Positions 9,181 through 13,335 of a DNA stretch of 64,000 nucleotides are shown piece by piece. Numbering within the stretch: position 1 is the stretch's first letter; every line of letters begins with the position of its first letter. The notes below the pieces were generated by a model, which was given only the letters and a program-made list of their open reading frames with translations, did not search any database and had not been told where the DNA came from. The translations under genes and the position numbers were made by a program. Location: contig CAXXKA010000001.1 in the NCBI GenBank assembly GCA_963668625.2, forward strand, positions 612,582 to 676,581, read 5' to 3'. Origin of the DNA: an uncultured candidate division Zixibacteria bacterium. GTDB taxonomy: Bacteria > Zixibacteria > MSB-5A5 > UBA10806 > 4484-95.

Positions 9181-9957
9181 ATGAATACCGGAAGTATAAT
9201 ATCAAATTCTATTAAAATAATGATGTTATCGGTCATGATAGCGGCTTGCTGCTGTGGCCCGAATATATCATCGGAAAACTACTCTGAAAGCAAAAGCAAA
9301 GCTATCAGGCTGGTTGATGATGGGAGATGCGATAAAGCCGTTAAGTTATGCCGCAAGTTGTTGGAGATAAACGAGAAGGATGCCGAAATATACCGTCTGG
9401 CAGCAGCTTGTTTCGCAAAAATAAACCAGCCCGATAGCGCGGTTTTTTACTATCAGGGAGCTATAGTATTCAATCCCTCGGATCGCCAGGCTTATGAACG
9501 TATAGCCGATATTTATTACGATAAAACCGACTATCACACCGCTATGACCTGGTATGATAAAGCATTGCAGATTAGCTATATCAGCCCCGAAAGCTATGTC
9601 AGGTTAGCGAAAATACATCAGAACTGGAGCGAATATGCTTTTGCCGGAAGATATTACGGTTATGCCCTGGCGGCCGATCCTGACAATGTTGAAGCGCTTT
9701 ATGGCCTCGGCACGATACAACTTCAAACCGGTGACACCACGGCGGCAATTAGCTCTTTGAGCAAAGCGGCGGAATCGGGTAAACATGCCGGCGCCGCCTA
9801 TAAGCTGGGGGTTATTAATCAACAGATGAAAGACTACAGTAAGGCTATCGGCTGGCTGGAGAAATGTATCGAGTTCAGCGATGACCAATCGTTGAAAGAT
9901 AAAGCCTACCAGTTCAAGATGGAGATCGTGATGCGGATGAGGGACGGGCAGCAGTAA
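9181..9957 (+). CDS. TPR-repeat protein, probable lipoprotein (start uncertain, 9151-9222)
   Basis: Hydrophobic N-terminus ending AAC; several TPR helical pairs. Confidence 0.75.
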   Translation: MNTGSIISNSIKIMMLSVMIAACCCGPNISSENYSESKSKAIRLVDDGRCDKAVKLCRKLLEINEKDAEIYRLAAACFAKINQPDSAVFYYQGAIVFNPSDRQAYERIADIYYDKTDYHTAMTWYDKALQISYISPESYVRLAKIHQNWSEYAFAGRYYGYALAADPDNVEALYGLGTIQLQTGDTTAAISSLSKAAESGKHAGAAYKLGVINQQMKDYSKAIGWLEKCIEFSDDQSLKDKAYQFKMEIVMRMRDGQQ

Positions 9958-10332
9958 GCGGAAATGATCGTTGCTTAACAAAATATCTATTTTAATCCTG
10001 AAGGTCTAAGTCACCTGTCATTGGCTTGAAAATACTGATTCAGAAGCTAAACGTATTCTATAAACCTTGTTTTGATATAGTCATGGCGATAAAATCAAAT
10101 CGAAACGGAGTTTCTTGAATGCCGGCATACCGAACGGAGCGATTGTTGAAACAGCTTTTCATGAGTCGCTGGGCGGACGAAGTCTTTTGTTTATCCTTTC
10201 CCGACGATATACTGCATGTATGCAGCAGGAAGAAAGTAACTATGTTATCAAAAGCTTGAGCCTCAGTCATTCGGATTGTATTGTTATTTTGACAAACATT
10301 CAACAATCAACACGAACAAACAGGAGGCTCAA

Positions 10333-11391
10333 ATGCCATGTTACAACAAAATCGAGCGTGAAGCCAACACTATTTACGTTGGTATTGACGTTCATAAGCG
10401 GAGTTGGCATGTAACAATGCGAACAACTGAGCAAGAGTTATGGAAAGGCAGTATTGCAGCTGATTGGGAAGTATTGAAAAAAGTATTGGGGCGTTATTCC
10501 GATTGTGACATTTCGGTAGTTTACGAAGCCGGTTTTAGTGGTTTCTGGTTATATGACAAACTGGTAGCCTGGGGAGCGTCATGTATAGTGACTCCGCCGA
10601 GTTTGATTCCTTCTGAATACGGCAATCGGGTCAAAACTGATCGCCTCGACAGTGCCAAGCTTGCTTTACTACTTTCCCGTAGTATGCTCAAGGCAGTATG
10701 GGTACCTGATGTCGAAGCGCGTGGTCATCGCCAGGTATTGCGTCGCCGTCGCCAGTTGGTCAGCGACCGGGTCCGTATTCAATGCCGTATCAAGAGTGAG
10801 TTAGCCTGTTTCGGTCTATCTCTGCCGACAATTAGCGGCAAGTGGACGGAGACATTCGAACAGCATTTATGGCAGTTGCGTTTTAGTGATCGCTGGCAGA
10901 CAGAGAGTTTTCAGAGGTTACTGACACAGTATCGGCTGGTGAGTGAATTGATTACTCAACAGACACGGTTATTGAAAGAATTGTCAAAACTGGATCGTTA
11001 TCGGGAAGCGGTTGAGCGTCTACGTAGTGTTCCGGGCATCGGCTTGTTAACGGCGATGGAACTATTATTGGAGTTAGGGGACTTCAGCCGATTTAGTCGA
11101 GGAAGCCAATTGGCCGCCTACGTGGGCTTGACTCCAAGCCAATATTCCTCCGGTGACAAGGTTCGACTAGGACGAATCACCAGGATCGGCAAACCGCAGT
11201 TACGGTCGAATCTGATCGAAGCCTCCTGGATTTTGATCAGGAAGGATCCGGCCCAGGCTCAGCGTTATCAACAGCTCAAGTGGCGGTGTGGTTCCAAACG
11301 AGCCATTGTGGCCAGTGCCCGCCGTCTACTGTTAATCGTACGGCGTCTGATGCTTGACCATCAGAGCTATCGAATCCAAACCGCAGCATAA
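10333..11391 (+). CDS. IS110-family DEDD recombinase/transposase
   Basis: VGIDVHK, VYEAG, KTDRLD (RuvC-like DEDD), SVPGIG and GLTPSQYSSG (catalytic Ser); SD AGGAGG before ATG 10333. Confidence 0.96.
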   Translation: MPCYNKIEREANTIYVGIDVHKRSWHVTMRTTEQELWKGSIAADWEVLKKVLGRYSDCDISVVYEAGFSGFWLYDKLVAWGASCIVTPPSLIPSEYGNRVKTDRLDSAKLALLLSRSMLKAVWVPDVEARGHRQVLRRRRQLVSDRVRIQCRIKSELACFGLSLPTISGKWTETFEQHLWQLRFSDRWQTESFQRLLTQYRLVSELITQQTRLLKELSKLDRYREAVERLRSVPGIGLLTAMELLLELGDFSRFSRGSQLAAYVGLTPSQYSSGDKVRLGRITRIGKPQLRSNLIEASWILIRKDPAQAQRYQQLKWRCGSKRAIVASARRLLLIVRRLMLDHQSYRIQTAA

Positions 11392-11420
11392 AAAAGAGAT
11401 AATTAGTTTACAATATCTGA

Positions 11421-11565
11421 GTTTGGAGAATGGCGAAGGAATCCTTGTGGCTTAACAACAGACCGCGCAGGAAAGGGTGTTATCTCCCCTGGTAATAATC
11501 TCGGATTGATTAATTGTGGCTGTGTTTGAGGGCCAGACCACGAATAGCAGGGTGACTATTATCGG
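11421..11565 (+). ncRNA. Predicted bridge/seek RNA of the IS110 element (target- and donor-binding loops)
   Basis: Two repeated modules TTGTGGCT-x-CAGACC(G/A)CG-[8 nt ending AG]-GGTG, each closed by an outer stem; guides match the reconstructed target and donor junctions. Confidence 0.75.
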
Positions 11566-11767
11566 CAATGTCTAACAGTGGCAGCATGTTGTAGTTTAAA
11601 CATGGGTATTCTGCGTTTTATTAAGAAAAGGAGAAATCGATATAACAATACTAACCGAACAATATCACTTGACATGATACATAGCAGGATTCCTACCACC
11701 TCAGCGAAATCGAAACGGAGTTTCTTAATACTGGCCTTACCAGGCGGAGTATTTTAACGAGATTAAC

Positions 11768-11797
11768 ATCATGCCGGGCTGTTACACCCGGCATGAT
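11768..11797. terminator. Hairpin terminator after the S8 protease gene
   Basis: Perfect 11-bp stem ATCATGCCGGG/CCCGGCATGAT. Confidence 0.65.
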
Positions 11798-11808
11798 TAT
11801 TAGATATG

Positions 11809-13335
11809 CTACTGAATGGTATAAGAATCGCTTGTCTCGTGGTTGGAGGCGGAATTGTAATACCAGCCGTCTTTGGTGACATCGGTAACAGTAGCCGTGA
11901 ATGACATCCCGCGCGATGCGCCGGAAATCCCGAAAGTAACCGTACCGCTAGCGTTTGTATATCCGCTGAAATAGTAATTGGAACCGCCGTGGTGGTATAA
12001 TGTCATATCTACATAGGCGTTACTGACCGGGGTGGAATGATCCTCAGTGTGAATATTAACGTAAATATACAAAATGTAGTACCATCCCCAGCGTTGCTGG
12101 CTGAACGATATAGAGTTGACATGCATCGTATCGGCGCCGGCGCCACCGCCGCCGTAATCATCACCGTTGGTTGTGCCGAGCGTAGCGTTTTCGGCATCCA
12201 CCAGGCCGTACCCCTGCTGGGTAGCGGGCAGGCTGATATCCTCGGCGGTGTTATGCAGCAGTGTTCTGATTTGTACATTGGTATAGCCTGAATGAGCCTC
12301 CCAGGCCAGCGCGGCCGAACCGGCTACCATCGGGCAGGCCATGGAGGTGCCGCTTAAGGTAGCGTAGGTGTTTCCGGCATAGGTAGAGTAGATACTCGAT
12401 CCGGGAGCAATTAGCTCGATTTCATTGCCGTAATCGGAGTAGTCAGCTATATCATCGGATGAGGTCGAGGCCGAAATGGCCATCACCGAGGTTAAGGCGG
12501 CAGGGTAATCGACAGCTGAACCGTAGCCGTTTCCGGCGGCAGCCACCAGGAGTATGCCCTCATCATAGCAATCCTCCATCGCCACATCCTCAGCATATGA
12601 ATAGCCGCCCCCATAGCTCATGGAGATAACTTTGATATTGTTGTAAGGATCGGCATCGTAATGCGTATCGATACACCAGTCGGCTGCCTCGAGAATATAG
12701 TTCAGGTAAGGATCACTATAGCCTACGCGTAAAGCCCAGAGATCAGCCTCGGGCGCGACACCGACAACACCGATAGCGTTGTCATCCGCGCCGATAATAC
12801 CGGCGCAATGCGTGCCGTGACCACTGGCATCATCCCAGGCAGTCGTGTCGGCGGTATAGAAATTATATCCACCGGCCCAGGTCAAATCGGGGTGATCCTG
12901 ATCGCCGCCCGAATCGATAATCGCGACATCGATACCATCCCCGGTATATGCAGAATTATCATGCACGTACTCGGCATCGATTCTATCGACTCCCCAATCC
13001 AGGGTTTGGACGTTAAAGCGACGGATCATGTTCTCTTCGACGAATTTAATCCCTGGTTTTGAGGTCAGGGTGGATACGGCATCCTGGGGAATAGAGGCGA
13101 ACACGATTGGGAAATGTTTGTATTGATGTTTTACTTTACCGTTAACCGCCGCGATAGAACTGGTAGCCCCCTTTTCCTCAATGCCGATTAAGACATTAAC
13201 TTGCCCCGGTTCGACCGCGTGCTTCATTATGTAATCATTATTGCTTTCCGTATCGGTGGGCATATCTTTCGAACAACTAAAGACCATCATGAGGACGGCC
13301 AGCCCAGCCAGTAACAATAAAAGTTTGTTTCTCAT
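11809..13335 (-). CDS. Subtilisin-like S8 serine protease lipoprotein (I9 propeptide, C-terminal beta domain)
   Basis: Lipobox VFS-C; catalytic triad IIDSG, HGTHCAG and GTSMACP. Confidence 0.95.
   Translation of the reverse strand: MRNKLLLLLAGLAVLMMVFSCSKDMPTDTESNNDYIMKHAVEPGQVNVLIGIEEKGATSSIAAVNGKVKHQYKHFPIVFASIPQDAVSTLTSKPGIKFVEENMIRRFNVQTLDWGVDRIDAEYVHDNSAYTGDGIDVAIIDSGGDQDHPDLTWAGGYNFYTADTTAWDDASGHGTHCAGIIGADDNAIGVVGVAPEADLWALRVGYSDPYLNYILEAADWCIDTHYDADPYNNIKVISMSYGGGYSYAEDVAMEDCYDEGILLVAAAGNGYGSAVDYPAALTSVMAISASTSSDDIADYSDYGNEIELIAPGSSIYSTYAGNTYATLSGTSMACPMVAGSAALAWEAHSGYTNVQIRTLLHNTAEDISLPATQQGYGLVDAENATLGTTNGDDYGGGGAGADTMHVNSISFSQQRWGWYYILYIYVNIHTEDHSTPVSNAYVDMTLYHHGGSNYYFSGYTNASGTVTFGISGASRGMSFTATVTDVTKDGWYYNSASNHETSDSYTIQ

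What the first reader, a model, noticed from the sequence alone, without database searches (positions are those of the whole stretch)
11421..11565. Natural bridge RNA: two repeated guide loops matching target and donor
Seen: two modules of the form outer stem-[guide]-UUGUGGCU-x-CAGACC(G/A)CG-[guide ending AG]-GGUG-outer stem. Loop 1 (outer stem GGAGA-UGGC/GUUAUCUCC): AGGAAUCCU (11437-45) is the exact 9/9 complement of core plus right flank AG-GATTCCT; CAGGAAAG (11468-75) matches left flank plus core GAAGAAAG at 6/8 plus one G-T wobble. Loop 2 (outer stem GGUAAUAAUC/GACUAUUAUC): AAUAGCAG (11543-50) matches the IS right end CATAGCAG at 7/8; UGAUUAAU (11507-14) only partly complements the left end AGTAACTA. 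Known: IS110 bridge/seek RNAs program recombination. Here the RNA lies 3' of the gene and the right-side guide comes first, the reverse of IS621. Inference: a reprogrammable RNA-guided recombinase with an AG core whose two loops look like products of a tandem duplication. I cannot tell whether this member has been described.
Basis: partly seen in the sequence, partly recalled or inferred. Interest (0 to 1): 0.88.

Follow-up and report, generated by a model that had tools for sequence, protein, structure and literature searches.

The report
IS1111-type insertion sequence bridge RNA
This is the guide ("bridge" or "seek") RNA of a small mobile element of the IS110/IS1111 family, an RNA-guided DNA recombination system first described in 2024, so it is a clean natural example of a known kind and not a new mechanism.

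Summary
Window 10237-11687 is a 1451-bp IS110-family insertion sequence. It has five near-identical copies in this genome. Each sits in the loop of a REP-like hairpin (empty site CAGGAA-AG-GATTCC, core AG). The non-coding region 3' of the transposase gene (about 11425-11564) has two look-alike internal-loop modules. Loop 1 carries a guide complementary to core plus right flank (9/9) and a guide identical to left flank plus core (8/8 in 3 of 5 copies). Loop 2 carries a guide matching the IS right end (7/8) and a weak guide for the left end.

A covariance model finds the same RNA just 3' of the transposase gene in 57 related loci. All 30 stem pairs show compensatory changes.

Guides covary with each element's own flanks:
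- Right-target guide at least 8/10 in 36 of 47 cognate loci, against 19 of 2114 non-cognate pairs.
- Left-target guide at least 6/7 in 17 of 26, against 9 of 632.

The 3' position and the reversed guide order are the published IS1111 layout (Durrant 2024; Siddiquee 2024). NCBIfam already names the protein an "IS110 family RNA-guided transposase". Expression could not be tested. Verdict: real, a new member of a known kind, modest interest.

The parts
10156..10236 (+). Left part of a REP-like repeated element that hosts the insertion. It ends with left target plus core GAAGAA-AG (10229-10236).
   Evidence: 34 further matches at 80-91% identity elsewhere in the genome; flanks of the other copies and empty sites.
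10237..11687 (+). Insertion sequence, 1451 bp counting one copy of the AG core (core copies at 10235-36 and 11686-87).
   Evidence: five copies, identical except T/C at 11481, each with different flanks outside these limits.
10240..10250 (+). Left subterminal inverted repeat CTATGTTATCA, preceded by the 3-nt extension TAA. TATGTT (10241-46) is the -10 half of the promoter formed when the ends are joined.
   Evidence: ends compared.: -35/17 nt/-10 at the same position in 20 of 26 related loci.
10256..10332 (+). Conserved long-range inverted repeat TTGAGCCTC (10256-64) ... GAGGCTCAA (10324-32). It encloses the ribosome-binding site AGGAGG (10322-27) just before the start codon.
   Evidence: Read. 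The same arms are present in L021-L027. Function not tested.
10333..11391 (+). Transposase/recombinase gene, 352 aa, with the motif GLTPSQYSSG (residues 265-274).
   Evidence: PF01548 (E 3.8e-16) and PF02371 (E 2.5e-27). NF033542 'IS110 family RNA-guided transposase', 238 bits against a cut-off of 140; conserved columns.
11425..11487 (+). Target-binding loop module. Outer stem GGAG-A-AUGGC (11425-34) pairs with GUUAU-CUCC (11479-87). Inner hairpin 11447-11466.
11436..11446 (+). Right-target guide AAGGAAUCCUU, complementary to the top strand of core plus right flank.
   Evidence: family covariation.
11468..11475 (+). Left-target guide CAGGAAAG, the same sequence as top-strand left flank plus core, so it pairs with the bottom strand.
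   Evidence: family covariation.
11493..11564 (+). Donor-binding loop module. Outer stem 11493-99/11558-64 and 11501-02/11554-55. Inner hairpin 11516-11541.
11504..11515 (+). Right-donor guide region GAUUGAUUAAUU. It pairs only with the A of the core and with TAA of the left end; the G of the core faces an A.
11543..11550 (+). Left-donor guide AAUAGCAG, matching the IS right end CATAGCAG at 7/8.
11669..11687 (+). Right end of the IS: TTGACA (11669-74, the -35 half of the junction promoter), right subterminal repeat TGATACATAG (11675-84), extension C, core AG.
11688..11700 (+). Right target GATTCCT and the continuation of the REP-like hairpin.

Best explanation
Window 10237-11687 is an active or recently active IS110-family insertion sequence of the IS1111 type. 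Its 3' non-coding region encodes a two-loop bridge RNA of about 140 nt, equivalent to the 'long seekRNA' of Siddiquee et al.

Proposed cycle, by analogy with IS621 and ISEc11:
1. The element excises as a circle.
2. Joining the ends builds a promoter (TTGACA, 17 nt, TATGTT). It transcribes the transposase gene and, on the same transcript, the RNA.
3. The RNA is bound by the DEDD/Ser recombinase.
4. The donor loop holds the circle junction. [quoted passage not shown]
5. The target loop holds the loop of a REP-like hairpin. [quoted passage not shown]
6. Strands are exchanged at the shared AG.

Shown here: element limits, target site, conserved RNA structure on the + strand, guide-flank covariation, and the conserved junction-promoter halves.

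Inferred: that the RNA is made, processed and bound by the protein, and the chemistry of strand exchange.
For: Element:
- Five copies differ at one base.
- Junctions are identical, with AG at both ends.
- Uninterrupted target exists in unoccupied repeats.
- The genome holds 12 exact and 102 sites within 2 mismatches of the 15-nt target, against 1 for the reversed-pattern control.

Protein:
- PF01548 plus PF02371.
- NF033542 at 238 bits.
- The SG of GLTPSQYSSG aligns with the SG of the ISCro4 transposase, PDB 9t56.

RNA structure:
- A2: 93.4% of cells paired, 20 of 30 pairs with changes on both sides, 0 of 500 shuffles as high, slid controls 32-55%.
- Model R1 hits the + strand just 3' of the transposase gene in 58 of 96 sources: the window, 7 of 7 close relatives, 50 of 80 metagenome loci and 0 of 8 distant Solirubrobacterales loci.
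- In the own genome R1 finds exactly the five copies.
- A3 (58 sequences, fitted to the model): 91.8% paired, and 30 of 30 pairs change on both sides.
- G-U pairs occur in the stems. The window copy's T11481 makes a G-U where the other four copies have G-C. This fits an RNA read from the + strand.

Guides:
- At right junctions located with the left-donor guide, the cognate right-target guide matches at least 8/10 in 36 of 47 loci, against 19 of 2114 non-cognate pairs.
- At left junctions located from the subterminal repeat alone, the cognate left-target guide matches at least 6/7 in 17 of 26, against 9 of 632.
- The right-donor guide matches the first 4 nt of the left end at least 3/4 in 22 of 26, against 109 of 570.
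- Left-donor guide variants (AAUAGGAG, AAUAGAAG, GAUAAAAG, AAUAGCGG, AAUGGCAG) find their own exact copy at the IS right end in 10 loci.

Promoter: junction-promoter halves score at least 9 of 12 in 23 of 26 loci, and sit at the identical position in 20.
Against: - There is no evidence of transcription, processing or protein binding in this organism.
- Thermodynamic folding is no better than shuffles (z 0.26 and 0.16). Large internal loops would give this, but folding energy therefore adds no support.
- No Rfam 15 family matches.
- The window copy itself sits in an imperfect site (left guide 6/8). One copy (L004) has 5/8 and one (L005) has 7/9 on the right.
- The right-donor guide is weak in the window: 4 of 5 over core plus 3 nt, with the G of the core mismatched.
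- 11 of 47 loci scored below 8/10. At least L025 and L103 are mis-called junctions, because a better candidate junction is listed for each.
- 21 of 47 loci gave no left junction by my rule.
- A3 is fitted to the model, so its pair counts lean towards the structure.
- Related sequences are not independent.
Confidence: 0.88

Rival explanations
1. Only the first module (11425-11487) is the working RNA, a short 'seekRNA' that chooses the target. The IS ends would be recognised mainly by the protein through the subterminal inverted repeats. The second module would then be a scaffold or processing element rather than a true donor guide.
For: - Siddiquee et al. report that an 82-nt seekRNA holding only the target matches was sufficient for ISEc11 movement, and that the role of the long RNA is open (PMC11187229, passages).
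- The right-donor guide pairs with only about core plus 3-4 nt. Both core positions are complementary in only 4 of 26 loci.
- The left-donor guide and the IS right end are nearly invariant in the family, so most loci cannot show covariation.
Against: - Where the left-donor guide does vary, the IS right end carries the same variant in 10 loci.
- The right-donor guide follows the first bases of the left end (TAA, TTC, TTAC, GTAT, TCC): at least 3/4 in 22 of 26 cognate loci against 109 of 570 non-cognate pairs.
- The module's stems keep pairing with compensatory changes.
- Donor loops are shown to be functional and programmable in IS621 (PMC11208160, passage).
Confidence: 0.08
2. The conserved 3' region acts as DNA, not as an RNA. 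It could be internal transposase-binding sites or a decoy copy of the target.
For: No transcript has been seen. The region contains DNA copies of both target halves and of the right end.
Against: - Stems keep pairing through G-U pairs, which would be A-C mismatches on the other strand.
- All 58 model hits are on the transposase strand.
- The two target halves are presented on opposite senses and separated by a hairpin, as in characterised bridge and seek RNAs.
- NCR-derived RNA co-purifies with IS1111 transposases in the literature (PMC11187229 abstract).
Confidence: 0.03
3. The matches are chance resemblances in an AT-rich untranslated region.
For: The guides are short (8-10 nt), and the target is a partly palindromic, abundant repeat.
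Against: Non-cognate guides reach the same scores in about 1% of pairs, against 65-77% for cognate pairs.
Confidence: 0.01

Closest known systems
IS1111-group elements with seekRNA / bridge RNA in the right end (ISEc11, ISPa11, ISKpn4; Siddiquee et al. 2024, PMC11187229; Durrant et al. 2024, PMC11208160)
   Same: - The long non-coding region lies 3' of the transposase gene.
- The top-strand match lies 5' of the bottom-strand match.
- Subterminal inverted repeats are present.
- The GL-P----SG motif is present.
- A promoter is formed at the circle junction.
- Insertion is site-specific, into a repeated palindromic sequence.
- The RNA length (about 140 nt) is close to the 145-170 nt 'long seekRNA'.
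   Different: - Only about 36% amino-acid identity to the nearest named plasmid-borne relative found (ISSso6 family).
- The left terminal extension is 3 nt (TAA), not the 6-7 bp quoted for IS1111.
- The subterminal repeat is 10-11 nt with one indel.
- Both loops are simple, mirror-like internal loops, whereas Durrant et al. note a multi-loop donor site in many IS1111 members.
- The host is an uncultured bacterium. Nearest homologues are in Ignavibacteria and Zixibacteria MAGs.
IS621 bridge RNA and recombinase (IS110 group; PDB 8wt6)
   Same: - Two pseudo-symmetric internal loops with four guides.
- A 2-nt core shared by target and donor.
- A DEDD plus Ser recombinase.
- A REP-type target.
- A junction promoter.
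   Different: - The RNA is 3' of the gene, not 5'.
- Guide order within each loop is reversed.
- The core is AG, not CT.
- The protein aligns to IS621 only over the Tnp domain (E 4.9e-9).
- The right-donor guide usually pairs with only one of the two core bases in this family (19 of 26 loci). In IS621 the core is stated to be included in all four pairings.
ISPpu9 of Pseudomonas putida with the downstream Ssr9 small RNA (NAR 2025, PMC12288879; abstract seen in the search listing only)
   Same: An IS110-family element inserted in REP sequences, with a small-RNA gene downstream of the transposase gene and several copies per genome.
   Different: Not compared by sequence here. ISPpu9 also has solo copies of the RNA gene, whereas model R1 finds none outside the five IS copies in this genome.

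Membership tests
IS110 family (DEDD transposase) | N-terminal DEDD/RuvC-like domain (PF01548) and C-terminal Transposase_20 domain (PF02371) | tested here: met
   E 3.8e-16 and 2.5e-27, both above the gathering scores. NF033542 at 238 bits against a cut-off of 140.
IS110 family (DEDD transposase) | Catalytic D, E, D, D and the Ser-Gly of the Tnp loop (IS621: D11, E60, D102, D105, S241) | tested here: inconclusive
   D19, E65, D103, D106 and S273-G274 are invariant in A1, with spacing like IS621. The SG aligns to the SG of ISCro4. The N-terminal domain was not aligned to a solved structure, so the DEDD assignment rests on position only.
IS1111 group | Longer non-coding region downstream of the transposase gene | tested here: met
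   The left end is 96 nt (10237-10332) and the right end is 296 nt (11392-11687).
IS1111 group | Subterminal inverted repeats of about 11-13 bp | tested here: met
   CTATGTTATCA (10240-50) against the reverse complement of TGATACATAG (11675-84): 10 matching bases with one indel. The repeat is conserved in relatives.
IS1111 group | Asymmetric terminal extensions, 7 (or 6) bp left and 3 bp right (quoted) | tested here: not met
   The right extension CAG (3 bp) fits. The left extension is TAA (3 bp), or AGTAA (5 bp) if the core is counted on the left. Neither is 6-7 bp.
IS1111 group | GL-P----S(t)G motif in the C-terminal domain | tested here: met
   GLTPSQYSSG at residues 265-274, with the motif positions invariant in A1.
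IS1111 group | In the RNA, the top-strand match lies 5' of the bottom-strand match | tested here: met
   11437-45 is complementary to the top strand. 11468-75 is identical to the top strand, so it pairs with the bottom strand.
IS1111 group | Transposase clusters with IS1111 members in a phylogeny of ISfinder entries | not testable with these tools
   No ISfinder sequences are available here. The nearest named relative found is the ISSso6 family at 36% identity. Siddiquee et al. note that some IS110-type elements also have a 3' NCR, so group assignment is probable, not proven.
Bridge RNA (Durrant et al. 2024) | Two internal loops, each with a left and a right guide for target or donor | tested here: met
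Bridge RNA (Durrant et al. 2024) | [quoted passage not shown] | tested here: inconclusive
   Met for three guides in the window. The right-donor guide has A opposite the G of the core. Across the family both core bases pair in only 4 of 26 loci.
Bridge RNA (Durrant et al. 2024) | Guides covary with target and donor across orthologues | tested here: met
   36 of 47 against 19 of 2114; 17 of 26 against 9 of 632; 22 of 26 against 109 of 570.
Bridge RNA (Durrant et al. 2024) | The RNA is expressed, binds the recombinase, and changing the guides retargets recombination | not testable with these tools
   This needs bench work.

The most novel reading that the evidence does not exclude
This clade contains at least 58 elements in uncultured bacteria. 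It may be a distinct IS1111-like subgroup with three properties: (1) the donor loop is a simple mirror image of the target loop; (2) the inner hairpins of the two loops co-evolve within each element; (3) the right-donor guide is deliberately short (core plus 3-4 nt) and usually mismatched at one core base. That would imply a donor-recognition or directionality rule different from IS621, for example ends read mainly by the left-donor guide plus protein contacts with the subterminal repeats. It would also offer a compact AG-core scaffold for engineering.
Probability: 0.25. Interest if true: 0.45.

Novelty: new member of a known kind. Interest (0 to 1): 0.28.

Why it matters
The first-stage reader recovered a complete bridge-RNA system (boundaries, core and all four guides) from raw sequence, and every part of it checks out.

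For biology, this adds a well-delimited, multi-copy, apparently active IS1111-type element from an uncultured lineage. It comes with a family of 57 related loci whose guides and natural targets can be read off directly. That is useful raw material for anyone mining new programmable recombinases or studying how these elements colonise REP-like repeats.

It opens no new question. The mechanism, the 3' location and the reversed guide order are in print, and annotation pipelines already name the protein an RNA-guided transposase.

Tried and rejected
- Rfam 15 scan of 9900-12000 at E up to 10: only three chance-level hits to eukaryotic families.
- Single-sequence folding: z-scores 0.26 and 0.16, uninformative.
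- Promoter/terminator scan of the linear element: no + strand promoter and no terminator. A promoter dedicated to the RNA was therefore not found.
- RNA evidence: no RNA holder listed. Three DNA runs of one sample and study hold the stretch.
- Laying those contigs: no joint, so neither a circle junction nor an empty site was seen at this locus. Contigs drop rare forms, so this says nothing either way. They showed T>C at 11481, which matches the other four genome copies.
- Unbiased scan of the whole upstream 420 nt for the left-target guide: a weaker signal (7/7 in 15 of 45 loci against 63 of 1920). I replaced it with the junction-anchored test.
- I first thought the window's right-target guide was shifted by 1 nt relative to its relatives. 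Many family members have the same '...CUU-GUGG' form (L117, L141, L107, L137, L111, L150, L139), so it is a common variant and not an anomaly.
- Model R1 on an E. coli plasmid copy of an ISSso6-family element (L177): only 12 bits, E 0.023 on 2.7 kb, just 3' of the gene. Too weak to use.
- Protein structure, complex prediction and the large protein searches were not run. They could not change the verdict.
- Supplements are closed. Durrant et al. Supplementary Table 5 and Siddiquee et al. Supplementary Figs 6-7 may list a catalogued relative or a long-seekRNA fold that bears on 'has this member been described'.

Full report
**What is there.** The finding lies in the 296-nt non-coding stretch between the stop codon of a 352-aa ORF (10333-11391, + strand) and a sequence boundary at 11687. 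The ORF carries both Pfam domains of IS110-family transposases: PF01548 at E 3.8e-16 and PF02371 at E 2.5e-27. It scores 238 bits against NCBIfam NF033542, 'IS110 family RNA-guided transposase', whose cut-off is 140. Against solved structures it matches only the Tnp domains of the ISCro4 (9t56) and IS621 (8wt6) transposases, at E about 4e-9. The Ser-Gly of its GLTPSQYSSG motif aligns with theirs.

**Limits of the element and its target.** A search of the window's own genome (4.3 Mb, 10 contigs) with 10150-11760 found five full copies, one 79-nt right-end fragment and 34 matches to the left flank alone. The five copies share 1451 bp and differ only at 11481: T in the window copy, C in the other four. 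Outside that block the flanks differ.
- All copies read ...AG|TAACTATG on the left and CATAGCAG|GATT on the right, so AG is the only sequence common to both junctions.
- The left flank is a REP-like repeat ending in a hairpin. Unoccupied copies carry the uninterrupted site, for example CAGGAAAGGATTCC in L010. Others vary by one base in the hairpin loop (10 of 14 loci gave an anchored copy, and 4 had no anchor match).
- The genome holds 12 exact copies of the 15-nt site and 102 within two mismatches, against 1 for the reversed-pattern control.

All are at the stated coordinates.
- AGGAAUCCU (11437-45) is the exact complement of AG+GATTCCT in 4 of 5 copies and 7/9 in L005.
- CAGGAAAG (11468-75) equals left flank plus core 8/8 in three copies, 6/8 in the window copy and 5/8 in L004.
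- AAUAGCAG (11543-50) matches the right end CATAGCAG at 7/8.

**Structure.** Folding energy is uninformative (z 0.26 and 0.16), although the 161-nt minimum-energy fold does give two stem-loop modules.

Seven relatives at 52-77% protein identity were found in genome contigs: uncultured bacteria, Ignavibacteria and Zixibacteria MAGs. Six of them plus the window were aligned as A2; L026 was left out because an inserted hairpin disturbs its 3' stem.

A hand-drawn structure of 30 pairs describes two modules. Each has an outer stem with one bulged base, a G, a 5' guide, an inner hairpin GUGG...CCACG, a 3' guide ending in AG, a 3-nt linker, and the return strand of the outer stem. On A2, 93.4% of cells pair and 20 of 30 pairs change on both sides. 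No shuffle of 500 reaches this, and sliding the partner by 1-3 columns gives 32-55%.

A covariance model built from A2 (R1) was run on 96 sources. It hit the + strand within about 100 nt of the transposase stop codon in 58 of them: the window, 7 of 7 close relatives and 50 of 80 metagenome loci at 34-63% identity. It hit 0 of 8 Solirubrobacterales loci at about 30% identity. I did not examine why 30 metagenome loci lack a hit. Many are short contigs.

In the own genome R1 finds exactly the five IS copies. On the 58-row alignment (A3, fitted to the model, so biased towards it) 91.8% of cells pair and all 30 pairs show changes on both sides.

G-U pairs occur in the stems. The one polymorphism among the five copies converts a G-C pair into G-U. 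This favours an RNA read from the + strand over a DNA-level signal.

**Guides follow their own flanks.** Guide columns were taken from A3.
- Right-target guide: the IS right end was located in each locus only by the left-donor guide (last 7 nt, at most 1 mismatch, best then nearest). The 10 nt of core plus flank were then compared with the reverse complement of the right-target guide. Cognate pairs score at least 8/10 in 36 of 47 loci, against 19 of 2114 non-cognate pairs. Of the 11 low scorers, L025 and L103 are junctions mis-called by my rule, since one search lists a better candidate for each. The others I did not resolve.
- Left-target guide: the left end was located only from the subterminal inverted repeat and the core, which succeeded in 26 of 47 loci (14 had no repeat candidate, 7 had no core). 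The guide matches at least 6/7 in 17 of 26, against 9 of 632, and 7/7 in 9 of 26, against 0 of 632.
- Right-donor guide: it follows the first four bases of the left end (TAAC, TTCC, TTAC, TCAC, GTAT and others) at least 3/4 in 22 of 26 loci, against 109 of 570. Both core bases pair in only 4 of 26 loci, and one of the two in 19.
- Left-donor guide: it is nearly invariant, as is the right end. Where it varies, the right end carries the same variant exactly in 10 loci. This is partly circular, because the guide was used to find the end. The flank that follows then matches the independent right-target guide.

**Other parts of the element.**
- The ends carry subterminal inverted repeats: CTATGTTATCA at 10240-50 and TGATACATAG at 11675-84.
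- TTGACA (11669-74) lies 13 nt from the right end, and TATGTT (10241-46) lies 4 nt inside the left end. Joining the ends would therefore give a -35/17-nt/-10 promoter. The same geometry holds in 20 of 26 relatives, and 23 of 26 score at least 9 of 12.
- No promoter or terminator was found in the linear element. The RNA is therefore most simply made on the transposase transcript from the junction promoter or from read-through, and then trimmed. This is inference. It matches what Siddiquee et al. propose for IS1111 long seekRNAs and what is shown for IS621 (passages of PMC13626964).

**Comparison with what is known.**
- Durrant et al. 2024 (PMC11208160; passages read) define the four guides and state that IS1111-group elements have long right ends, long subterminal repeats and a predicted bridge RNA in the right end.
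- Siddiquee et al. 2024 (PMC11187229; abstract, sections 6, 9 and 13, and passages) show that in IS1111 members the NCR is downstream, the RNA co-purifies with the transposase, and the top-strand match lies 5' of the bottom-strand match, reversed relative to IS110. They also show that a junction promoter forms and that the C-terminal motif is GL-P----S(t)G.
- The window element meets all of these. Its left terminal extension (3 nt, or 5 if the core is counted on the left) does not meet the quoted 6-7 bp, and I could not place the protein in an ISfinder phylogeny. I therefore call it IS1111-type with good but not complete support.
- The nearest named relative in the plasmid collection is an ISSso6-family transposase at 36% identity.
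- The likeness of the two modules is real in the window: alignment score 7.5 against -7.2 +/- 3.6 for shuffles, with 1 of 1000 as high. The inner stems of the two loops are slightly more alike within an element than between elements (2.34 against 1.93 of 4 pairs, 0 of 5000 permutations, relatedness not controlled).
- Pseudo-symmetric target and donor loops are already described for IS621. The likeness fits a common origin of the two loops, or one protein reading both. It is not specific evidence for a recent tandem duplication.

**Verdict.** The element is a new member of a known kind. What differs from the best-studied systems is minor: an AG core, two simple mirror-like loops where many IS1111 members are said to have a multi-loop donor site, a short left extension, and a right-donor guide that usually pairs with only one core base. 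None of this was tested functionally, and no RNA data could be found.

Noticed in passing
window 10156-10236 and 11688-11706; L007-L020: The insertion site belongs to a highly conserved repeated element of about 100-130 nt. There are at least 34 further copies at 80-91% identity. It ends in a hairpin whose loop is the IS target, and 102 target-like sites lie within 2 mismatches in the genome. Rfam gave no match over the window copy. Whether it is a REP, a MITE or a small-RNA gene is open.
   Followed up: partly
L006 (G000:C6:578611-578689), about 2 kb upstream of the full copy L002: A solo remnant of the last ~66 nt of the IS right end, followed by a normal right target. It is preceded by another target-like hairpin (CCGTCGGGAAAGGATTCCCAACGG). 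The same junction appears as a 90-nt contig in run X1. It could be a deletion product or an aberrant recombination product.
   Followed up: partly
window 10256-10264 and 10324-10332: Conserved inverted repeat TTGAGCCTC / GAGGCTCAA in the left end. It would pair across the ribosome-binding site AGGAGG (10322-27) of the transposase gene. The arms are kept in L021-L027 while the sequence between them varies. This suggests translational control of the transposase.
   Followed up: no
window 11481: The only difference among the five IS copies. T in the window copy makes G-U and C in the other four makes G-C, in the outer stem of the target loop.
   Followed up: yes
L026 2001-2995: The transposase gene of this Zixibacteria relative is split by a frameshift near 2190. 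It also has an extra hairpin inserted in the 3' strand of the donor-loop outer stem. The guides still match its flanks at 8/10.
   Followed up: partly
A3, right-donor guide columns; 26 loci: In this family the right-donor guide is complementary to both core bases in only 4 of 26 loci and to exactly one in 19. The published IS621 description has the core in all four pairings.
   Followed up: partly
L177 2078-2196 (E. coli plasmid CP065623.1): Weak R1 match (12 bits) just 3' of an ISSso6-family transposase gene, including CGAAUAUCAG where the model has CGAAUAGCAG. This hints that the donor-loop 3' guide region is similar in distant IS1111-like elements.
   Followed up: no
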